Part shown: positions 3 to 40,304 of the stretch, one piece after another
How the letters are laid out: each line of letters opens with the position of its first letter
Numbering within the stretch: position 1 is the first letter of the stretch
Source of the DNA: an uncultured Gemmatimonadales bacterium
GTDB lineage: Bacteria; Gemmatimonadota; Gemmatimonadetes; Gemmatimonadales; Gemmatimonadaceae
Direction: 5' to 3'
Assembly: GCA_963793305.1 (NCBI GenBank)
Contig: CAWBZV010000003.1
Location: 416,001 to 480,000, forward strand
DNA length: 64,000 nucleotides
Program-made: the position numbers and the translations under genes
The notes under the pieces: generated by a model
Databases searched by the model: none
Seen by the model: only the letters and a program-made list of their open reading frames with translations
What the model was told of the DNA's origin: nothing

Positions 3-359
3 TCGATGCTCACGATGGGGCTGTCGCCGCGCTTTACCGGGCCCCTCGCGAATTGGCGCTACGCCGTGCTCGCGTCCGCGTATGCGACGCTCGGCCGGCG
101 GGCCGACGCATTCCAGCAACTCGCGCTGGCGGAGCAGGCGGCCGGGCGGCTCTCGGCCGATGATGCCATGCGAGGGAACATGGAGGAGCAGATTACCCAG
201 GCGTTCGGCATCATGGGCGAGGCCGATTCCACCATCGCGCACGTCAAAGTGCTGCTCAAGCTGGCGAGCGGATTTTCGATGGAGACGGCGAAGACCGATA
301 TCTCGTTTGCGCCGCTTAAAGGGAAGCCGGCATGGGAGCAGTTTCTCGCCGGGCGATAA
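3..359 (+). CDS. C-terminal end of a TPR-like helical protein (5' partial)
   Basis: Frame open from the window edge; Ala/Leu-rich TPR-like helices. Confidence 0.5.
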   Translation, partial: SMLTMGLSPRFTGPLANWRYAVLASAYATLGRRADAFQQLALAEQAAGRLSADDAMRGNMEEQITQAFGIMGEADSTIAHVKVLLKLASGFSMETAKTDISFAPLKGKPAWEQFLAGR

Positions 360-32471: not shown

Positions 32472-33133
32472 CAGCGTATACGGAGTCCGTCGAGAACTGC
32501 CTCAAGGCGGTCTACGAGCTCGAGCGCTCGGGGCGCGAGAGCGTCTCGACGACCGATCTCGCCAACCGCCTCGGGATCGCGCCGCCGTCGGTGACGGGTA
32601 TGATGCGCCGGCTCGCCGACTCGGGTCTGATTAAGTATGAACCATACCATGGCGCTCGATTGACCAACGAAGGGCAGCGGGTTGCGCTGCGTACCTTGAG
32701 GCGCCATCGCATTATCGAGACGTACTTGGCGCGTGCGCTGGGCCTGTCCTGGGACCTCGTGCACGAGGAGGCCGAGCGGTTGGAGCACGCGGCGTCGGAT
32801 GCATTGATCGATCGGATGGCAATGGTGCTTGGGCACCCGACGGTGGATCCGCACGGCGCGCCGATTCCGACGGCCGAGGGCGCGATCGATGAGCGCATGC
32901 TGACGCCGCTCACCGAGCTCGATGTCGGCGATCGGGCGCGCATCGTCTCCGTGTACGACGAGGATCCCGATCGGCTGCGCTACCTGGGCCAACTCGGGCT
33001 CGTGCCCGGCGTCGTCGTGACGCTCGTGAGCCGTCAGCCCTACGGCGGGCCGCTCTCGCTGGGACTCGGCGATGCGGTCCGCGATATCGGGCCCGCGCTC
33101 GGCGCTTGTGTGTTCGCGGAGCGGCTCGGATGA
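32468..33133 (+). CDS. mntR: DtxR/MntR family metal-dependent repressor with FeoA domain
   Basis: [33 protein letters not shown]; follows mntH. Confidence 0.88.
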
Positions 33134-35636
33134 GCGAGACGCCACTCATGCAGCAGTATCGGGAGATCAAGGCGCGGCATCAGGACGCGATCCTGTTCTT
33201 TCGCATGGGCGATTTCTTCGAGATGTTCTACGAGGACGCCGAGGTTGGCTCGCGGGTCCTGGGTCTCACGCTGACGGCACGCAACAATGGCGGTGCGGCG
33301 GCGGTCCCTCTGGCCGGCGTCCCCGCCAAGGCGGTCAGCGAGTACGTCAAGCGACTCGTCCGCAAGGGCTTTCGTGTGGCGATCTGCGAGCAGGTCGAAG
33401 ATCCCAAGTACGCGAAGGGTCCTGTTCGGCGCGAGGTCATCGAGACGGTCACGCCCGGCGCCGCGCTCGCCGACGATCTCCTCGACGGGGCTCGCAATAA
33501 TTTTCTCTGCGCGCTGCATGGCACTGGTCTCGCGGCGGTCCGAATGTCTCGACGGGCGAATTCCGTCTCGCCACCGCCCACGTATCCGACGCCGCGGCTC
33601 TCGTCGCTCGCTACGCCCCACGTGAGATCCTGATTGCGCGCGGCGCCACGGTCGGCGTGCCGATCGATGGCGTGCTCGTGACAGAGCGCGAGCCGTGGGA
33701 GTTCGACACGGCGAGTGGCGCCGAAGCGTTAGCCCGGCGTTTTGGCGTTCAGTCGCTCGAGGGATTCGGCGTTCAGTCGTCCGACGCACCTGCCGTAGCG
33801 GCAGCGGGCGCATTGTTGGAGTACCTGCGCGAGCTTCAGCCGGGCGGGCTCCCGCACTTGGCGCGGCCGGTCATCGAACGTCCTGGTGGCTCGGTGCCCC
33901 TCGACGAAATGACGCGCCGGAATCTCGAGCTCGTCGAGTCGTTGCGTGGTGAGGCCGCGGGCACGTTGCTCGACGTCCTCGATCGGACATCGACGCCGAT
34001 GGGCGCGCGGCTTTTGCGCCAGTGGATTCTGGCGCCGCTTTCGGATCGCGTCGCGATCAACGCGCGGCTCGATCGCGTCGAGGCGTTGGCCAACGACTCA
34101 TTGGCCCGTGCGGCGTTGCGTGACGCGCTCGATGGGGTGCGCGACGTCGAGCGCCTCGCCGGCAAGGTCGCCGCTGCCCGGGCGACACCCCGCGAGCTTC
34201 GCTCGCTCGGCGACTCGCTGGCGCGCCTACCCGACGTTAGCGCGGCGGCGGCGCGCGTGGGTCTCGCCGAGCCCTGGGACACGTGCGACGATCTCGCCGC
34301 CGCGATCACTCGAGCGCTCGTCGAGCGGCCGCCGATCGCGATCGGTGATGAGCCGACGATTGAGATCGGTGTCGATGCCGGCGTCGACGAGCTGCGTGTG
34401 CTCCGTGACGGAGGGAAGGACGCGATCGCCGAGATTCAGGCGGCCGAGCGTACGCGGACGGGGATCGCGTCGCTCAAGGTCGGCTACAATCGGGTGTTCG
34501 GATACTTCATCGAGGTGACGAACGCCAACAAGGACGCGGTTCCGGCCGACTATCAGCGTCGCCAGACGCTGACGGGGGCCGAGCGGTATGTGACGCCGGC
34601 GCTCAAGGAGTACGAGGAGCGGGTGCTGACGGCGGCCGAGCGATTGGAGGCGCGCGAGCGGGAGTTATTCGAGGCGTTGCGCTCTGCTACCGGCACTGGG
34701 ATCGCTCGCCTTCAGCTTGTTGCTCGGCGAGTGGCCGAGCTCGACGTTGTGGCGACGTTCGCGGAGGTGGCGGAGCGCGAGCGGTTTGTTCGGCCGGTGG
34801 TGACGGACGACCTCGAGATCGACATCGTCGGCGGCCGGCATCCGGTCGTCGAGCGGATGATGCCGCGCGAGCAGTTCATCCCGAACGATGTTCGGCTCAG
34901 TACGGCCGAGCGGGTGATTATTCTCACGGGGCCGAACATGGCGGGCAAGTCGACGATCCTGCGCCAGGTCGGACTCATCGTATTGTTGGCCCAGGCCGGC
35001 AGCTTCGTACCCGCCGCGCGCGCGACGATCGGCATCGTCGACCGGCTCTTCACGCGCGTCGGCGCGAGCGACAATCTCGTGCGCGGGCAGTCGACGTTTA
35101 TGGTCGAGATGGCGGAGACGAGCGCCATTTTGCACACGGCCACCGCGCGCAGCCTCGTGTTGCTCGACGAGATCGGCCGCGGGACGTTGACGTACGACGG
35201 CGTCTCCATTGCGTGGTCCGTCACCGAGCATCTGCACTCTCGGGTAGGCTGCAAGACTATTTTCGCCACGCACTACCACGAGCTGACGCAACTCGCCGAC
35301 GAGCTCCCGGCTCTCCGCAACTACAACGTGGCCGTCCGCGAAGTCGGCGATCGCATTTTGTTCTTGCACCGGATGCAACCGGGCGGCGCCGATCGCTCCT
35401 ACGGAATCGAAGTCGGCCGCCTCGCCGGCCTCCCGGACGCCGTCATCACTCGCGCTCGCGAAGTGTTGCGGCGCCTCGAAAGCGAACAGCTCGTCGCGTC
35501 ACGCCCTGTCGAGCAGCTCGCACTTTTTGCTCCCGAGCCTCACGCCGCCGTCAAACGCTTAGCAGCGCTCAATCCCGATGATATGACGCCGTTGCAAGCA
35601 CTGACTTTGTTATCTGAGCTCAAAGGGCTCGTTTAA
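33130..35636 (+). CDS. mutS: DNA mismatch repair protein MutS (frameshift ~33540-33600)
   Basis: TPLMQQY, FRMGDFFE, GPNMAGKST, STFMVEM, DEIGRGT, FATHYHEL. Confidence 0.95.
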
Positions 35637-35772
35637 AATCTCACCGCCGAGATTTACTCGCTAGCGCGCAACGCGCGGCGCTTTTTATATTGCCGGTCCG
35701 CTGAACCAGCGTGTGGCCGTTTTCGAATCACCGTGTCGCAGCACCCAGTTGGCACCAAACACGCCGCGTGTG

Positions 35773-35858
35773 GCCCGCGTGGTGGAACTGGTAGACACGG
35801 TCGATTCGCAATCGACTGACCCGCAAGGGTCGTGTGGGTTCAAATCCCGCCGCGGGCA
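35773..35858 (+). tRNA. type II tRNA with Leu-type body and CGC (Ala) anticodon
   Basis: Acceptor GCCCGCG/CGCGGGC with A73; D-arm GTGGAACTGGTAGACAC; anticodon arm GTCGA-TTCGCAA-TCGAC; variable arm GACCC-GCAA-GGGTC; T-arm GTGGG-TTCAAAT-CCCGC; no encoded CCA. Confidence 0.9.
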
Positions 35859-35888
35859 CACGCTGGTTGACACGTACGCTTTTGCACG

Positions 35889-35917
35889 TTGACGGTCGGA
35901 CGCACTATTTCTAGATT
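35889..35917 (+). promoter_or_regulatory. sigma70 promoter for the downstream small RNA
   Basis: TTGACG-17 bp-TAGATT. Confidence 0.7.
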
Positions 35918-35921
35918 TACT

Positions 35922-35997
35922 ACGACCCTTGCGGGCGAAGTGTCCGCCAGTTCCAGACACAGAAGTGACCCCGGGTGATTGCGACACCCGGGGTTTT
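35922..35997 (+). ncRNA. putative anti-tRNA small RNA (three hairpins)
   Basis: Bounded by a promoter and a terminator; three segments complementary to the upstream tRNA. Confidence 0.7.
35969..35997 (+). terminator. intrinsic terminator (possibly bidirectional)
   Basis: CCCCGGGTG-ATTGCGA-CACCCGGGG-TTTT. Confidence 0.8.
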
Positions 35998-36005
35998 CTG
36001 TTGCG

Positions 36006-36710
36006 CTACATGGTCGTCGCCGGCTGATCCGGCATCAGGAATCGAAATTCCTGCCGCACCCACTGCCGCACGAGCCTCCCGCCGAGCTCCGCGGGCACGA
36101 AGCGCATGTGAGGGAGCGCCGAGCGGAGTGATTGCTCGAAGGCCGGGTGCGAGGAGTGGATCACGCGGAGACTGGTGCTGTCCGCGCCGCCCGTCGTGTC
36201 GACGACGAATTCGACGGTCAGCGACCCCTCGATGTGATTCTCCATGAGATACGACGGATACTCCGGCGCCGCACTCGTGGGATCCCGTTGCACCTCGCGG
36301 TCGACCTCGGCGTCGACATAGACCTTGCCACTCGGCAGCGCGTCGATGTCGGGAAGGTCGACCGTAGGCGCCGCGTCGCCCTTGCGCCCAAGGCCGATGC
36401 CTTGGCGGTTGTCGCCGGCGACGTTGAGCCCGGTGCCTTTGGTGGCCTTTGACCGGTCCCCAGACCCATTGGCATTGCTCGGCGCCCATTTGACGCCAGC
36501 GGTATCGAGCGACTTCCCTGTGGGAATCGTCGGAGCCAGATAGGTGACGATGCGCTCCTCGTCACTCTTCTTATCCGCCACTTTCGGCCAATACGCGGCA
36601 CCGGACGCGATGAAAAAGACGACAGCGGAAGCCGCTAATCCCACCGTCACCGACGGTACCGAACACAGACTCGCACTCTGTGGTGCCACGAGGTGGCGCA
36701 GCATACCCAC
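36006..36710 (-). CDS. TonB family energy transducer
   Basis: N-terminal TM; PEYP...IEG...VEFVVDTTG...FVPA. Confidence 0.8.
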   Translation of the reverse strand: MGMLRHLVAPQSASLCSVPSVTVGLAASAVVFFIASGAAYWPKVADKKSDEERIVTYLAPTIPTGKSLDTAGVKWAPSNANGSGDRSKATKGTGLNVAGDNRQGIGLGRKGDAAPTVDLPDIDALPSGKVYVDAEVDREVQRDPTSAAPEYPSYLMENHIEGSLTVEFVVDTTGGADSTSLRVIHSSHPAFEQSLRSALPHMRFVPAELGGRLVRQWVRQEFRFLMPDQPATTM

Positions 36711-36848
36711 ACCCCCACCGGCCTAACAAAATCCCTGGGACTACTATGTGTATTTGCCCGGTCTTACGCTAGTCTCGAACCCGTTCCACGGCCCATGTAG
36801 TCGGGACGACTTGCTCTTAGAAGGGGACGAGTTGCCCTACTACAGTGG

Positions 36849-37601
36849 TCACTTATCATGCCCAGTCAAGATGGACTCGAACAATTCGAGCGCGCGCGGG
36901 TCACCGGATTGGCCCAGCCAGAACATGGCCTTACGGCGAAGCTCCGGGTCGTGATTATTTTTGGCCACATCGATCAAAATCGGTACACCTTCCTCGCGCG
37001 GCCGCTGCGACAGCGCGAAGATCGCCGACTCGCGGACCTCGCGATTGACGCCGTTATCGGTCACCAGTGAATCGAGTGCCCCCGTCGCGTTGGCGGCGGC
37101 CTGACCGAGCCAAAAGACCGCATTCTTTCGCGTCTCCGTCGGCTTCGCGTCGTCACGCGCGATCGCGATCAAACGTGGCCAGATTCGGACCTGGTCGGAG
37201 CTATCGGCAAGAGTTGCCGGAAAAATCGCGTCGTGGCCCACATGCGTCGATTTCCGCTCGGCCAGTCCGAGGAAATAATCCGCCGCCGCGCTCGCCGATA
37301 CGGCGCCCAGGTCGGTGATCGTGACGGCGCGCGGACGCCACCGTCCGCCGACATGGACGTGGATGCGCGTGATCTCGTGCGCGCTCACCCAGACGACGAC
37401 GCGCACGGGGCCGTCGTCGCAGTCGTCGTCGTACTCGACGTCGGTATCGTCATCGCCCGAGACATAGCGATGGTGCCCGGCGCACAGGCCCGGCCGGGCC
37501 GCGAAGGTCATCCGCACCTCGCCGTCGGGCGCGGCCGCAATGCGCGAGGCGAGGTCGGGCTGCTGCTGGGTCAATGCCCAGACGAGTGCCAAGGCGATCA
37601 T
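36849..37601 (-). CDS. secreted HEAT repeat protein
   Basis: RKNAVFWLGQ and RRKAMFWLGQ repeats. Confidence 0.8.
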   Translation of the reverse strand: MIALALVWALTQQQPDLASRIAAAPDGEVRMTFAARPGLCAGHHRYVSGDDDTDVEYDDDCDDGPVRVVVWVSAHEITRIHVHVGGRWRPRAVTITDLGAVSASAAADYFLGLAERKSTHVGHDAIFPATLADSSDQVRIWPRLIAIARDDAKPTETRKNAVFWLGQAAANATGALDSLVTDNGVNREVRESAIFALSQRPREEGVPILIDVAKNNHDPELRRKAMFWLGQSGDPRALELFESILTGHDK

Positions 37602-38935
37602 TTGTTGATCAACTCCTGAAGGACCTGTACGGCACGCGGATCGTGGGACTGCCCGAGCCAGAACACCGCCTTCTTGCGCATCTCGGGATCCTTGTCGGTC
37701 TTGGCGATCGAGATCAGCTCATCGACCGCCGAGCGCTCGTGGCGTTGCGAGTACGCAAAGATCAGGGCCTCCTTGAGCTCGCGATCCTGCATCCGGCCAT
37801 AGAGGCCGGTGAGCTGGTCGAGTGACGAGCTGCCCTGGCCCAGCCAGAAGATCGCCTTCTTCCGCACCTCGACGTCCTGCGTCGTATCCGTGGCGACGCC
37901 CGCCAGCCAGTCGGCCTCGTCCCCGCTGTGACGTTGGGCGACCGAGAAGATGATCTTGTCCTTGAGATCCATGCTCTTCTCTTTGCGGAACATATTCTTG
38001 AGAAACGTCTCGTCGTCGGGATTTGAGCTCTGGCCGAGCCAGAACACGGCCTTCTCCCGCAGGTCTTCGTTCTGGGACTCGTCGCCCGCGAACTGGCGCA
38101 AGATCGGCGACCCGTGATCGTGCTGCTGCGTGAGCGCGAACAGGGCCTTCTCGCGAATCTCCTCGTCGTCCGAGTGCAGCAGCAGGCTGTCGAGCATCCC
38201 GACGGCACGGGGATCGTGGACCTGCGACAGCCAGAAGACGGCTTGCTCGCGGACCTCCTGGTCCGGGTCGGTGCGCGCGGTGGCGAGCAGGATATCGGCG
38301 CCGTCGGACTGGGCTTTTTGCGATACCAGAAAGACCGCCTTGCGACGCAGCACGACCGAGCAGGCATCCCGGCGCGCGAGCACCTGCTTCAAGATCGGCA
38401 TCGCCTTGTCGGGCTCGACCTGGAGCAAGGCGTCGAGCGCGGCGATCTGGATATTGTTGTCGTCGTCCTCGGTCGGGCACTTGGTCGACTCGGTCGTGGG
38501 CTCCTTCGAGTCCGCCTTGTACATCAGGCGCCGCTTACACGATTCATCCCCCTTCTGCACCAGCTGACGGCAGACCTGCGCGGTCAGCGCTCCGGCATCC
38601 TTGGAGAGCGACGTCGTGGACGCCGTGAGGATGCCATAGGCCTGACGCAGGTCATCGATGCTGCCCATGCGCGACCGCGAAAACGCTTCGTAGTAGGCCG
38701 CCGTCGAGGCGTATGTCGATGTCGGATACCGCGATGTGATCTCATGGAACAACGCGGCCGCGCGGGCATAGCGTTGCTCGGCCATCGCGGCGCGGGCCGC
38801 GGTGTACAGTGAGTCGGCCGGGTCGTCCGGATAGGCGCCCACCGCAATCACATTCGACTCGGCCAGCTGCAGCTGCGCGCGAGCGGGCTGCGCGGCGAGC
38901 AGGGCGAGAGAGACGGCAAGAAAGAGTTTCATCAT
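37598..38935 (-). CDS. secreted TPR + HEAT repeat protein
   Basis: Signal peptide; repeated R(E/K)KA(V/I)FWLGQ. Confidence 0.82.
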   Translation of the reverse strand: MMKLFLAVSLALLAAQPARAQLQLAESNVIAVGAYPDDPADSLYTAARAAMAEQRYARAAALFHEITSRYPTSTYASTAAYYEAFSRSRMGSIDDLRQAYGILTASTTSLSKDAGALTAQVCRQLVQKGDESCKRRLMYKADSKEPTTESTKCPTEDDDNNIQIAALDALLQVEPDKAMPILKQVLARRDACSVVLRRKAVFLVSQKAQSDGADILLATARTDPDQEVREQAVFWLSQVHDPRAVGMLDSLLLHSDDEEIREKALFALTQQHDHGSPILRQFAGDESQNEDLREKAVFWLGQSSNPDDETFLKNMFRKEKSMDLKDKIIFSVAQRHSGDEADWLAGVATDTTQDVEVRKKAIFWLGQGSSSLDQLTGLYGRMQDRELKEALIFAYSQRHERSAVDELISIAKTDKDPEMRKKAVFWLGQSHDPRAVQVLQELINK

Positions 38936-39600
38936 AGACCCACCTGGTTCTGATTCGTCGGAATCGCTGCCTTGATCCGCGGCAGCACTTGAGCGTCATC
39001 GAGCGTGTGGGCGATCGCCGCCCGATCGCTCGTCGCGGCATCCGGCGAAAGCGCGGCGATCTGCACCAGCACGAGCTCGAGGTCTTCGAGCAACTGTCGC
39101 CGATGCGGATCGGCGCCCGCGGGCGAGTCCAGCAACAGTCGCGTGTTCGACAACAGGTCGCGGGCCCACAACGCAAGGTGCGCGTCCGCTTTCGCATCGG
39201 CCTTCGCGCCCGCTGCATTGCCCGTCGCCTGGCGGTTGTTGGCGTCGAACGCCGTGAGCAGCGCCTGCACTTCCAGAAGCTGCTGCGTCGTCGCGATCGC
39301 GTAAGCCTCGGGCACAGCCGTTGGAGCTGCCGCGGGATTCGCCGCGATCGGAGTACCGGTCGGGCGCGAGATGCTCACGCGCCCGACCCCAATGCCAACC
39401 GCGAGCACGATGACGGCCGCGGCCGCGAGCGGAGCGAAGCGACGCGAGAGTTGTAGTATGCGCGGCCGACCCCGCCGCTGCCCCGCGACGATCGCCGCCC
39501 ACATGGCCTCACGCGGCACGATCATCGGCGGCTGATTGTAATCCCGCGCCAGGTCACGCAGCGCGTCGTTCCACTTTTCTTCGTTCGCGTCGTCGTTCAT
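38932..39600 (-). CDS. putative membrane anti-sigma factor
   Basis: Single TM; coupled to the upstream ECF sigma by ATGA. Confidence 0.65.
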   Translation of the reverse strand: MNDDANEEKWNDALRDLARDYNQPPMIVPREAMWAAIVAGQRRGRPRILQLSRRFAPLAAAAVIVLAVGIGVGRVSISRPTGTPIAANPAAAPTAVPEAYAIATTQQLLEVQALLTAFDANNRQATGNAAGAKADAKADAHLALWARDLLSNTRLLLDSPAGADPHRRQLLEDLELVLVQIAALSPDAATSDRAAIAHTLDDAQVLPRIKAAIPTNQNQVGL

Positions 39601-40140
39601 GCGATCCACTCCCCGGCAAAATCCGCCAACGCAGTGCGCAACTTGGCCCGCGCCCGCGACAATTGTGCTTTCGAAGTCCCCGACTCTATGCCCAGCACGA
39701 CCCCGATCTCCTCGTGCGTATACCCTTCGAACGTCGTGCATCACGAACACCGTCCGATACCCGTCCGGCAGCGCGTCAATCGCCCGCGCCAGCCGCTCCT
39801 TGAGATCCGGCTCACTCCCAACCCGTACCGCACCGAGCGTCGCCTCGTCGACCGCGGTCGTCTCCCGCTCACGGAGCCGCCTGACCGAGCGCAGCCCATT
39901 GAGGGCCACCGACACGCCAATCGAATGCAGCCACGTCGAGAACGACGACCGTCGCTTGAACGTGCCGAGCGATGCGAACGCCCGGATGAACGTGTCCTGC
40001 GTGAAATCCCGAGCGAGGTCGGCGTCACCGGCGAACCGATAGGCGAGCCGGTAGACTCGGTCGACGTGCGCGTCATACAGCGCGCGCTGCGCGGCCGGAT
40101 CTCCCGCCAACACGCGATCGATCAACGCGTCGTCGCTCAA
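39597..40140 (-). CDS. ECF RNA polymerase sigma factor (frameshift ~39730)
   Basis: DFTQDTFIRAF, FSTWLH, LPDGYR, then GYTHEEIG...SKAQLSRAR in the second frame. Confidence 0.88.
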
Positions 40141-40304
40141 GCGTCCTCTCGTGCCATGGCGACACTCTGACACGCCGATATCACAAAGGGTTGCGTGTTA
40201 CGGTCGCGCTCGCATCTTAGGCGCATGTTTTCAGGCCGTCGCGGACTCATTCTAGCGGCGCTCGCTGTCGTACCGGGCCTTCAACTTGCGCCGCAGGTGA
40301 GCCT

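What the first reader, a model, noticed from the sequence alone, without database searches (positions are those of the whole stretch)
35773..35858. tRNA with leucine identity elements but an alanine (CGC) anticodon
Seen: an intact 7/5 cloverleaf with long variable arm, A15:U48, Leu-type D-loop (GGAACTGGTAGAC), A73, C3:G70, and anticodon loop TT-CGC-AA. Established: AlaRS needs G3:U70, which is absent, while bacterial LeuRS largely ignores the anticodon. The nearest Leu loop (TT-CAA-AA) differs by two substitutions, and separate flanking segments are complementary to the CGC loop (35724-35729, 35935-35939, 35977-35984), so a sequencing error is unlikely. Inference: a natural Ala->Leu missense tRNA.
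Basis: partly seen in the sequence, partly recalled or inferred. Interest (0 to 1): 0.85.

Follow-up and report, generated by a model that had tools for sequence, protein, structure and literature searches.

The report
Leucine-type missense tRNA with anti-tRNA partner
A soil bacterium carries a tRNA built like a leucine tRNA that reads the commonest alanine codon, and next to it lies a small RNA gene complementary to that tRNA, which looks like a built-in way to keep a dangerous mistranslating tRNA switched off.

Summary
Window 35773-35858 (+) is an intact class II tRNA with the bacterial leucine identity set (A73, A15:U48, G18G19, A20a, C2:G71), C3:G70 in place of the alanine mark G3:U70, and anticodon CGC. 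An independent metagenome contig has the same sequence, so it is not a sequencing error.

It is not a one-off. The genome holds three diverged copies. Relatives (probably Gemmatimonadales) carry the same tRNA body with at least 14 non-leucine anticodons, and the anticodon differs at one syntenic locus (CGC, CTC, CAC).

The new point: nearly every such tRNA is followed on the same strand by a sigma-70-like promoter, a short RNA complementary to that tRNA, and a terminator. This RNA covaries with the tRNA.

In this window the small RNA pairs with the variable arm (14 nt) and the D arm (9 nt). Its terminator loop is the exact complement of the anticodon loop. Three Planctomycetota loci show the same design.

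Best reading (about 0.5): a leucine-charged missense tRNA aimed at GCG, the genome's commonest codon, is held in check by its own antisense RNA, much like a toxin-antitoxin pair. Expression, charging and toxicity are untested. Eight full-text searches found no description of such a module.

The parts
35686..35691 (+). TATATT, a possible -10 box for the tRNA precursor. It would give a 5' leader of about 75 nt. No good -35 box was found.
   Evidence: Invariant in the four syntenic orthologues (alignment A2). The consensus scan did not call it. This is an inference.
35704..35713 (+). Leader strand AACCAGCGTG of a leader-trailer helix that encloses the tRNA.
   Evidence: It is the exact reverse complement of 35859-35868. 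The MFE fold of the precursor pairs the two. Other module groups have different but again complementary leader and trailer sequences. No formal covariation count was made.
35720..35737 (+). Leader segment that is an imperfect antisense copy of tRNA nt 21-38 (3' strand of the D stem plus the 5' half of the anticodon arm).
   Evidence: Read from the sequence, and the MFE fold pairs it with the tRNA. Across the family this leader match is weak and not unit-specific: a unit's own leader is its best partner in only 3 of 43 units.
35773..35858 (+). Class II tRNA with a leucine-type body and anticodon CGC (35807-35809; loop 35805-35811). A73 is at 35858. CCA is not encoded.
   Evidence: ARAGORN. Rfam 54.2 bits. 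In 42 family members the cloverleaf is kept, with both-sided compensatory changes at 21 of 25 pairs. C3:G70 and A73.
35859..35868 (+). Trailer strand CACGCTGGTT of the leader-trailer helix.
35872..35889 (+). Small hairpin (ACGTAC / GCACGT) that abuts the -35 box of the small-RNA promoter. It could be a processing site or an operator; its role is unexplained.
   Evidence: Conserved in the four syntenic orthologues, with one compensatory G:C to A:T change in G005.
35889..35917 (+). Sigma-70-like promoter TTGACG-17-TAGATT of the anti-tRNA small RNA.
   Evidence: It is the only promoter-like site in 35600-36050; shuffles give a mean of 0.1. A like promoter ends 5-10 nt before the antisense seed in 31 of 43 family units.
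35922..35999 (+). Predicted anti-tRNA small RNA of about 75 nt. The start is inferred at about 35923-35925 and the end at the T run after the terminator.
   Evidence: Lies between a promoter and a terminator. Folds with z = -4.1 against shuffles. Cofolding with the tRNA gains -17.9 kcal/mol; 100 shuffled small RNAs gave a mean of -2.2 and none reached -17.9. No Rfam family matches it. Expression is not shown.
35922..35935 (+). 5' seed ACGACCCTTGCGGG, complementary to the variable arm (gene nt 48-61 of the tRNA).
   Evidence: 14-nt exact reverse complement.
35947..35955 (+). CCAGTTCCA, complementary to the D arm and loop (gene nt 11-19).
   Evidence: 9-nt exact reverse complement.
35967..35995 (+). 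Intrinsic terminator with an 11-bp stem. Its 7-nt loop ATTGCGA (35978-35984) is the exact complement of anticodon-loop positions 33-39.
   Evidence: Terminator scan and fold. Three Planctomycetota modules show the same design: L114 terminator loop 7 of 7, L104 6 of 7, L068 5 nt.

Best explanation
The locus is a two-gene RNA module.

**Gene 1** is a translation-type tRNA derived from tRNA-Leu. The single housekeeping LeuRS should charge it with leucine, but it carries anticodon CGC, so it would insert Leu at GCG, the most used codon of this genome.

**Gene 2** lies about 65 nt downstream on the same strand and has its own promoter and terminator. It encodes a small RNA of about 75 nt whose 5' end, middle and terminator loop are complementary to the variable arm, the D arm and the anticodon loop of that same tRNA.

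**Proposed mechanism.**
- The small RNA docks on the exposed loops by kissing contacts.
- It then pairs further and unfolds or sequesters the tRNA. This blocks charging and decoding, or exposes the duplex to RNases.
- The missense tRNA would act only when the small RNA falls, for example after transcription shut-off, because tRNAs usually outlive small RNAs.
- This is the logic of an RNA-RNA toxin-antitoxin pair. The biological use (abortive infection, addiction, or stress-induced mistranslation) is open.

**Shown here:**
- the tRNA anatomy and its conservation;
- the family and its changing anticodons;
- the promoter, antisense seed and terminator architecture;
- the covariation between tRNA and small RNA.

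**Inferred:**
- transcription of both genes;
- leucylation;
- ribosomal use;
- toxicity;
- neutralisation by the small RNA.
For: **Identity.**
- The E. coli leucine set in PMC9976931 section 12 and Table 3 (passages read) is: A73; A15:U48; G18G19; A20a; D/T-loop tertiary partners; C2:G71 as an antideterminant against SerRS.
- All of these are present here.
- G3:U70 is absent here but present in all 4 canonical tRNA-Ala genes of the genome.
- There is one LeuRS gene (859.8 bits) and no paralogue above the cut-off.

**Selection on tRNA shape.** In 42 family members, 21 of 25 cloverleaf pairs show both-sided compensatory changes.

**Family.**
- The genome has three diverged CGC copies.
- Relatives carry anticodons reading Ala, Arg, Asp, Glu, Val, His, Gly, Thr, Pro and Ser codons.
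- The pattern matched 33 of 401 genomes of the family (this count includes the unpublished G285) and 9 of 151 in a phylum sample. All 9 belong to one order.
- The syntenic mutS|tonB-like locus (78-95% identical flanks) carries CGC, CGC, CTC and CAC in four species.

**Partner RNA.**
- 38 of 43 units have an exact downstream complement of at least 7 nt that includes the anticodon.
- 31 of 43 have a TTGNNN-16..18-TANNNT promoter ending 5-10 nt before that complement.
- 38 of 43 have a terminator.
- A unit's own downstream region is the best duplex partner of its anticodon arm in 27 of 37 units: mean -33.7 against -21.1 kcal/mol for other units, and -10 to -26 for six canonical tRNA-Leu.
- In 33 class-1 units, tRNA nt 26-40 pair with the small RNA in 28-33 of 33 cases, with up to 6 pair types per position. 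Small RNAs of other units with the same anticodon pair at only about 0.45-0.5 of the variable stem positions.
- Within this genome, each of the three tRNAs binds its own small RNA best: -17.9, -15.3 and -26.1, against -2.0 to -12.8 off the diagonal.

**Target codon.**
- GCG ranks 1 of 61 codons, at 62 per 1000, in 815 long ORFs.
- 28 of 37 family anticodons read one of the 12 most used codons.

**Plausibility from published work.**
- Synthetic antisense oligonucleotides against the region between the anticodon and the variable loop of a class II tRNA sequester it and abolish its activity in E. coli lysate (PMC6158751, abstract).
- Missense allo-tRNAs arrest growth and kill E. coli when induced (PMC5389517, passage).
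Against: **No expression data.** The two metatranscriptome runs laid (contigs only) cover the neighbouring gene from 36005 on but not the module, which says nothing either way.

**Charging is unproven.**
- All natural tRNA-Leu share A35, which is G35 here.
- A35 counts for yeast LeuRS in vitro (PMC9976931).
- The LeuRS of this lineage has not been studied.

**In this particular copy the anticodon complement is short.**
- It is only 7-8 nt, a length that other tRNAs of the genome reach by chance.
- The case for this copy rests on the 14-nt and 9-nt matches, on the position of the 7-mer in the terminator loop, and on the recurrence of that design.

**Exceptions.** 5 of 43 units lack a clear partner. 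Two of them (Pro tgg units L014 and L169) have quite different neighbours.

**The G.U against A.C test does not show selection on the + strand RNA:** 26 against 30.

**Weak points in the evidence base.**
- No convincing promoter was found for the tRNA itself.
- Units come from related genomes and are not independent.
- The search pattern required a leucine-type D arm and a non-A35 base, so the anticodon tallies are ascertained.
Confidence: 0.5

Rival explanations
1. The pair is a regulatory RNA device. The tRNA-shaped RNA is never used on the ribosome: it serves as a stable sponge, decoy or sensor for the small RNA, or the reverse. For example, it could report LeuRS or charging status, and the anticodon arm would be merely a variable address.
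For: The covariation proves an interaction, not a translation role. The anticodon arm and variable arm behave like hypervariable specificity regions, while the D arm and T arm are constant. The 5' leader and the leader-trailer helix suggest an elaborate precursor.
Against: The full leucine identity set, the acceptor stem, the T loop, U33 and a purine at 37 are all kept, with compensatory changes. A mere address would not need these. The anticodons are heavily skewed towards the most used codons, which only matters if codons are read.
Confidence: 0.2
2. One reading: a constitutively active natural Ala-to-Leu missense tRNA, tolerated at a low level. The flanking complementarity would be irrelevant.
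For: Identity elements are as in the best explanation. Natural hybrid-identity tRNAs exist: nev-tRNAs (PMC3333845, abstract seen in the listing) and tRNAProX (PMC11415595 section 17 passage).
Against: The dedicated partner RNA is conserved and covaries. GCG is the commonest codon, so constitutive activity would be very costly. Orthologous loci change the anticodon, which argues against a fixed recoding role.
Confidence: 0.08
3. The tRNA is charged with alanine or another non-leucine amino acid by an unusual recognition route. It would then be an ordinary, if odd-looking, GCG decoder or an inert molecule.
For: No charging data exist. A35 is missing.
Against: C3:G70 stands in place of G3:U70, whereas all four canonical tRNA-Ala genes keep G3:U70. 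The same body carries at least 14 different anticodons in relatives, so no single anticodon-matched synthetase can be meant. C2:G71 and A73 speak against SerRS.
Confidence: 0.05
4. A DNA-level feature: inverted repeats between a tRNA gene and its flank that are kept by gene conversion or used as a recombination or mobile-element site, with no small RNA function.
For: The G.U against A.C count shows no strand bias. Leucine-type mismatched tRNAs sit next to DUF772 transposases in two Solirubrobacterales loci.
Against: No integrase or transposase lies within 5 kb of any of the three copies, and their neighbours differ: mutS and a tonB-like gene; an unknown gene and a radical SAM gene; PP2C and others. 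The promoter and terminator are on the + strand with fixed spacing to the seed. In this copy the three complementary patches run in the order V, D, anticodon, which cannot form a single DNA hairpin with the tRNA gene.
Confidence: 0.05

Closest known systems
nev-tRNAs of nematodes (PMC3333845, PMC4300185; abstracts seen in the search listing)
   Same: Class II tRNAs with a leucine-type body and non-leucine anticodons (Gly CCC, Ile UAU), leucylated in vitro. They are the closest analogue of the tRNA itself.
   Different: They are eukaryotic and restricted to nematodes, and those abstracts mention no antisense partner. Here the tRNA is bacterial and multi-copy, has many anticodons, and comes with a dedicated small RNA.
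allo-tRNAs of Acidobacteria and others (Mukai et al., PMC5389517; passages read)
   Same: Bacterial tRNAs with anticodons that do not fit their identity and with a diverse anticodon spectrum. They are toxic when expressed in E. coli and are often found near toxin-antitoxin genes. The authors suggested they are missense suppressors and/or regulatory RNAs.
   Different: Allo-tRNAs have 8/4 or 9/3 acceptor/T architecture and serine identity. This one is a standard 7/5 tRNA with leucine identity. The words 'antisense' and 'complementary' do not occur in that paper.
tRNAProX with ProRSx of Streptomyces and Kitasatospora (PMC11415595 section 17 passage; PMC10404621 in the listing)
   Same: A natural bacterial family of hybrid-identity tRNAs that would mistranslate Ala, Asn or Thr codons.
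   Different: They have proline identity. The dedicated synthetase paralogue ProRSx is my recollection, not taken from any call. Here there is one LeuRS only, and the partner is an RNA.
RNA-RNA toxin-antitoxin pairs (type VIII: CreT/CreA, PMC8501985 abstract in the listing; SdsR/RyeA, recalled) and type I antisense antitoxins
   Same: An adjacent small RNA with its own promoter neutralises a harmful RNA by base pairing or repression. CreT also acts on translation through a tRNA.
   Different: In known systems the toxin is an mRNA, or a small RNA that sequesters a tRNA. Here the presumed toxin would be a decoding tRNA itself, and the antitoxin an anti-tRNA. Toxicity and neutralisation are not shown.
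Synthetic antisense sequestration of tRNA (PMC6158751, abstract read)
   Same: Oligonucleotides complementary to the region between the anticodon and the variable loop of a class II tRNA bind tightly and abolish its translational activity. That is the mechanism proposed here.
   Different: It is an engineered, chemically modified system used in vitro, not a natural gene.
T-box leaders and ColE1 RNA I/RNA II kissing complexes (recalled, no call)
   Same: RNA elements that read a tRNA anticodon by pairing (T-box specifier), and multi-loop kissing between two structured RNAs (ColE1).
   Different: No T-box family match in the region and no regulated downstream gene: the next gene is on the other strand. 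Pairing here extends far beyond the anticodon.

Membership tests
tRNA (Rfam RF00005) | Cloverleaf matching the covariance model above the gathering score | tested here: met
   54.2 bits against 29, full length 1-71. ARAGORN agrees.
Bacterial tRNA-Leu (identity set as in PMC9976931 section 12) | Discriminator A73 | tested here: met
   A at 35858. A73 is kept in the aligned family.
Bacterial tRNA-Leu | A15:U48, G18G19 and A20a in the D loop; U54, U55, C56 and A58 in the T loop | tested here: met
   Read from the sequence. The D region is nearly invariant in 42 members.
Bacterial tRNA-Leu | Leucine anticodon (A35 is common to all isoacceptors) | tested here: not met
   The anticodon is CGC, with G35.
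Bacterial tRNA-Leu | Aminoacylation by LeuRS | not testable with these tools
   Only one LeuRS gene was found. There is no biochemical evidence.
tRNA-Ala | G3:U70 in the acceptor stem | tested here: not met
   C3:G70 here. All 4 canonical tRNA-Ala genes of the genome have G3:U70.
allo-tRNA | 8/4 or 9/3 acceptor/T-stem architecture and serine identity | tested here: not met
   7-bp acceptor stem and 5-bp T stem. A73 and C2:G71 speak against serine identity.
tRNAProX/ProRSx-type system | A dedicated extra synthetase paralogue alongside the hybrid tRNA (the defining feature is recalled from memory, not taken from any call) | tested here: not met
   One LeuRS is above the cut-off. The other hits are other class Ia enzymes below it. 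The assembly is 92% complete.
Antisense-RNA toxin-antitoxin pair (type I or type VIII logic) | An adjacent RNA gene with its own promoter and terminator that is complementary to the harmful RNA | tested here: met
   Promoter 35889-35917 and terminator 35967-35995. Complements of 14, 9 and 7 nt. Family counts 38/43, 31/43 and 38/43. This is sequence-level evidence only.
Antisense-RNA toxin-antitoxin pair | Toxicity of the target RNA, rescue by the antisense RNA, and an unstable antitoxin | not testable with these tools
   No expression or growth data. RNA contigs do not cover the module.
T-box riboswitch | T-box leader fold with a specifier loop and antiterminator upstream of a regulated gene | tested here: not met
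   No T-box match at E up to 1 in 33000-39000. The next gene downstream lies on the minus strand.

The most novel reading that the evidence does not exclude
A new class of RNA-only conflict module. The toxin would be a fully functional tRNA that mistranslates the most abundant codons with leucine. The antitoxin would be a multi-loop 'anti-tRNA' that recognises the variable arm, D arm and anticodon loop of its own tRNA only. The rapid switching of anticodon and arm sequences at orthologous loci, the orthogonal paralogues within one genome, and the presence in two phyla would then reflect an arms race (for instance with phages) or selfish addiction. Bacteria would be using deliberate proteome-wide mistranslation as a suicide or dormancy weapon.
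Probability: 0.3. Interest if true: 0.95.

Novelty: new variant of a known kind. Interest (0 to 1): 0.88.

Why it matters
Natural tRNAs whose identity and anticodon disagree are rare, and their biological use is an open question (PMC11415595 sections 17-18).

This family offers a handle on that question. The cell appears to encode, next to each such tRNA, a specific RNA that can switch it off. That would explain how a genome tolerates a tRNA aimed at its commonest codon, and it makes regulated mistranslation directly testable with two small genes.

It would also be the first natural case I could find of a small RNA dedicated to a tRNA. Its design resembles what engineers built to sequester tRNAs for codon reassignment. 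The three mutually orthogonal tRNA/anti-tRNA pairs in this one genome could be useful parts for synthetic biology.

Tried and rejected
1. **Expression.** One run search and one laying of reads. RNA runs X15 and X16 gave contigs only from 36005 on (the neighbouring gene) and none over the module, so there is no conclusion.

2. **G.U against A.C asymmetry**, to show selection at the RNA level on the + strand: 26 against 30, uninformative.

3. **5' leader as a specific cis-antisense.** A unit's own leader is the best partner in only 3 of 43 units, so I dropped the leader as a general specific element. Some leaders do carry a hairpin whose loop complements the anticodon.

4. **Shared protein partner.** Pfam scans of ORFs within about 5 kb of all three copies found no common family, no integrase and no transposase.

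5. **Extra LeuRS:** none.

6. **Known RNA family for the small RNA:** none, in the window region or in 8 other module loci.

7. **Phage origin.** None had a downstream complement of 12 nt or more.

8. **Pseudogene or chance.** Rejected because of the compensatory changes, the three copies, and the covariation.

9. **Integration-site remnant.** Rejected: no integrase, and the repeats are inverted and internal to the tRNA.

10. **Earlier notes of this scan:** no look-alike by sequence.

11. **Literature.** Eight full-text searches found no bacterial leucine-type mismatched family and no tRNA/anti-tRNA gene pair. The library holds open-access papers and bioRxiv only, so a paper in a subscription journal could have been missed.
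Full report
**1. The observation**

- ARAGORN finds a single tRNA in the 64-kb window, at 35773-35859 (+), and calls it tRNA-Ala(cgc) from its anticodon.
- The Rfam tRNA model matches 35773-35858 end to end at 54.2 bits, against a gathering score of 29.
- Read directly, the gene has:
  - a 7-bp acceptor stem with C2:G71 and C3:G70, and discriminator A73;
  - the D region GGAACTGGTAGAC (A14, A15, G18G19, A20a);
  - a 5-bp anticodon stem and loop TTCGCAA (anticodon CGC at 35807-35809);
  - a long variable arm, U48, and a standard T arm.
- This is the E. coli leucine identity set as summarised in PMC9976931 (section 12 and Table 3, passages read).
- The alanine mark G3:U70 is absent, while all four canonical tRNA-Ala genes of the same genome carry it.
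- A contig of run X1 (possibly the source sample) and a 720-nt contig of run X3 (another study) are identical to the window over 35350-36069. The CGC anticodon is therefore not an assembly or sequencing slip. These were contigs, not raw reads.

**2. It is one of a family**

- The window is G000:C3:416001-480000 in a 5.7-Mb, 26-contig assembly of about 65% G+C.
- ARAGORN on the whole genome gives 62 calls. They include five canonical tRNA-Leu, four canonical tRNA-Ala, and three 87-nt leucine-type tRNAs with anticodon CGC, all on contig C3.
- The three copies differ in acceptor, anticodon-stem and variable-arm sequence but keep all stems.
- BLAST against 41 related genomes, then ARAGORN on the hits, showed the same body with other anticodons: ctc, cac, gtc, ggc, gac, tgg, agg, gcg. 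Ordinary tRNA-Leu(caa/cag/gag) were the nearest canonical relatives.
- A pattern for the leucine-type D arm plus a non-A35 anticodon gave:
  - 33 of 401 genomes of the family (21 of 241 high-quality genomes; the tally includes the unpublished G285, which I otherwise left out);
  - 9 of 151 genomes sampled across the phylum, all in one order and 0 of 46 in the other nine families.
- Record titles of the matching public loci place these in Gemmatimonadaceae/Gemmatimonadales. G000 is therefore probably a member of that family; this is an inference.
- An alignment of 42 non-redundant members folds into the cloverleaf, with both-sided compensatory changes at 21 of 25 pairs and a nearly invariant D region and A73. 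The tRNA shape is under selection, so these are not pseudogenes.

**3. The anticodon moves**

- Copy 1 lies between mutS (33657-35636) and a tonB-like gene on the other strand (36006-36710).
- The same locus is present in three congeners, with flanks 91%, 92-95% and 78% identical.
- The anticodons there are CGC (G000), CGC (G001), CTC (G004) and CAC (G005).
- Among 37 family units the tally is cgc 11, gcg 8, ggc 4, ggt 3, gtg 2, tgg 2, and one each of agg, ctc, gga, gcc, gtc, cac and gac.
- In 815 long ORFs of G000, GCG is the most used of the 61 sense codons (62 per 1000). 28 of the 37 anticodons read one of the 12 most used codons.
- Two caveats: the codon table is from G000 only, and the search pattern biases which anticodons could be found.

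**4. The partner RNA**

This is the main new result. Downstream of each mismatched tRNA, on the same strand, lies a segment that is the reverse complement of that tRNA's own anticodon arm. Canonical tRNA-Leu genes lack it.

Counts in 43 non-redundant units (family and order loci, plus eight Gemmatimonadota loci from the global scan), all:
- 38 have an exact complement of at least 7 nt that includes the whole anticodon;
- 33 have a TTGNNN-16..18-TANNNT promoter near it, and in 31 of these it ends 5-10 nt before the complement, so transcription would start at the seed;
- 38 have a G+C-rich hairpin with a T run after it.

Specificity and covariation:
- A unit's own downstream region is the best duplex partner of its anticodon arm among all units in 27 of 37 cases. 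The mean is -33.7 kcal/mol for own pairs and -21.1 for non-cognate pairs; six canonical tRNA-Leu give -10 to -26.
- In the 33 units with a contiguous seed ('class 1'), tRNA nt 26-40 are paired in 28-33 of 33 units, with up to six pair types per position. The small RNA of another unit with the same anticodon pairs at only about 0.45-0.5 of the variable stem positions.
- So three partners covary: the 5' stem strand, the 3' stem strand and the small RNA.
- Five further units from a sister family show the same layout.
- No Rfam family matches the small RNA, in the window or in eight other loci.

**5. This window's module**

- The only promoter-like site in 35600-36050 is TTGACG-17-TAGATT at 35889-35917. 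A terminator follows at 35967-35995.
- The RNA between them folds well, with z = -4.1.
- It does not carry the usual contiguous anti-anticodon-arm seed. Instead it has three patches:
  - 35922-35935, complementary to the variable arm (14 nt);
  - 35947-35955, complementary to the D arm and loop (9 nt);
  - the 7-nt terminator loop at 35978-35984, the exact complement of anticodon-loop positions 33-39.
- The 7-8-nt anticodon match alone is within what other tRNAs of this genome reach by chance.
- The 14-nt match is not. The three CGC tRNAs are the top three of 62 calls for the longest downstream complement, at 20, 16 and 14 nt against 10 or less for the rest.
- The same 'class 2' design recurs in three Planctomycetota loci. 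Each has a near-consensus promoter, a 5' seed against the variable arm (12-17 nt), and a terminator loop complementary to the anticodon loop: L114 7 of 7, L104 6 of 7, L068 5 nt.
- Looser forms of this design occur in Gemmatimonadaceae units L150, L151 and L170.
- Cofolding this tRNA (with CCA added) and its small RNA gains -17.9 kcal/mol over the separate folds. None of 100 shuffled small RNAs reached that (mean -2.2). Canonical tRNAs give 0 to -11.1.
- In a 3 x 3 test of the genome's three pairs, each tRNA prefers its own small RNA: -17.9, -15.3 and -26.1, against -2.0 to -12.8 off the diagonal.
- The order of the patches (V, D, anticodon) cannot form one hairpin with the tRNA gene. This argues for contacts in trans between loops.

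**6. Other anatomy (less secure)**

- A TATATT box at 35686-35691 is invariant in the four orthologues and may start a leader of about 75 nt. No good -35 box was found.
- The leader strand 35704-35713 is the exact complement of the trailer 35859-35868, so the precursor would enclose the tRNA in a helix.
Across the family this leader element is not unit-specific: 3 of 43.
- A small conserved hairpin at 35872-35889 abuts the -35 box.

**7. Context**

- Neighbours of the three copies share no protein family and include no integrase or transposase.
- There is one LeuRS gene and no paralogue.
- The module is therefore RNA-only and chromosomal. Its patchy distribution (6-8% of genomes sampled, several copies in some) is what one expects of an accessory or selfish element.

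**8. Mechanism**

- *Shown:* the anatomy, conservation, architecture and covariation described above.
- *From established knowledge:*
  - bacterial LeuRS does not read the anticodon;
  - missense tRNAs are toxic in E. coli (PMC5389517 passage);
  - antisense oligonucleotides against the anticodon-to-variable-loop region of a class II tRNA sequester it and abolish its activity (PMC6158751 abstract).
- *Inferred:*
  - both genes are transcribed;
  - the tRNA is leucylated and can decode GCG;
  - the small RNA docks on the loops, then unfolds, sequesters or destabilises the tRNA;
  - the tRNA acts when the small RNA level falls.
- My estimates: about 0.95 that the tRNA is a real, selected gene; about 0.85 that the downstream element is a dedicated interacting RNA; about 0.5 for the full gated-missense model.
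- The rivals are a non-translational regulatory pair, constitutive missense decoding, non-leucine charging, and a DNA-level repeat. They are listed with their tests.

**9. Comparison and novelty**

- The tRNA works like the nev-tRNAs of nematodes (leucine body, foreign anticodon) and like bacterial allo-tRNAs and tRNAProX (hybrid identity).
- It fails the defining features of the latter two. It has 7/5 rather than 8/4 or 9/3 architecture, leucine rather than serine or proline identity, and no synthetase paralogue.
- The pair works like an antisense RNA antitoxin with its target (type I or type VIII logic). No known system has a tRNA as the target of a dedicated small RNA gene.
- Eight full-text searches and passages of three reviews or method papers gave no description of a bacterial leucine-type mismatched family or of tRNA/anti-tRNA gene pairs. 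Subscription-only literature was not searchable.
- Earlier notes of this scan mention a transposon-borne leucine-type tRNA with a serine anticodon, and an archaeal class II tRNA with an isoleucine anticodon, both in other genomes. Neither note mentions an antisense partner.
- I file the finding as a new variant of a known kind (natural hybrid-identity tRNA). Its partner RNA has no precedent that I could find.

**10. Limits**

- There are no expression, charging or phenotype data.
- Promoters and terminators are consensus predictions.
- Units come from related genomes and are not independent.
- The taxonomy of G000 is inferred from the titles of related public loci.

Noticed in passing
L002:1640-1880 (G001, syntenic to window about 36000): The orthologous locus in a congener carries a second tandem small-RNA unit with its own TTGACG...TATAGT promoter, a 19-nt complement to tRNA nt 8-26 (D arm) and its own terminator. 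This seed would also match canonical tRNA-Leu with the same D arm.
   Followed up: partly
L150, L151, L017 (upstream 30-75 nt of the tRNA): The 5' leaders contain a G+C hairpin whose loop is the complement of the unit's own anticodon loop: TCACAG for His gtg, TTCGCAG for Arg gcg. This suggests a kissing contact in cis within the precursor.
   Followed up: partly
L160 (G305): The tRNA has anticodon GCC, but the downstream seed carries the codon GAC, which fits GTC. This looks like a unit caught after an anticodon switch that the small RNA has not yet followed.
   Followed up: no
L024, L169, L069: In an Acidobacteriaceae, a Gemmatimonadaceae and a Bryobacterales genome, a leucine-type tRNA with a Pro (tgg) or Ala (tgc) anticodon has no antisense RNA. 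Instead it is followed within about 30 nt by a 42-54-aa Lys/Pro-rich ORF with no Pfam match. Two of the ORFs are visibly alike. This may be a protein-partnered version.
   Followed up: partly
L022, L095 (Solirubrobacterales): Leucine-type tRNAs with Asp (atc) or Glu (ttc) anticodons lie directly upstream of a DUF772 transposase ORF.
   Followed up: partly
L173-L288 (viral contigs): Many phage contigs carry class II tRNAs with a leucine-type D arm and other anticodons (Gln ttg, His gtg, Asp gtc, and the suppressors tta and cta). None showed the antisense partner.
   Followed up: partly
window 35872-35889: A conserved hairpin lies between the tRNA trailer and the -35 box of the small-RNA promoter, with a compensatory change in one orthologue. 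It may be an operator or a processing site.
   Followed up: no
window 36849-40173 (-): Downstream of the tonB-like gene lies a minus-strand run of two HEAT-repeat proteins and a 413-aa protein with a sigma-70 region 2 domain. It appears unrelated to the module.
   Followed up: no
G479 (L293, L299, L301): A genome of a sister family also carries three separate CGC-anticodon matches; the two that were analysed further each have their own antisense seed. Multi-copy CGC sets therefore recur.
   Followed up: partly
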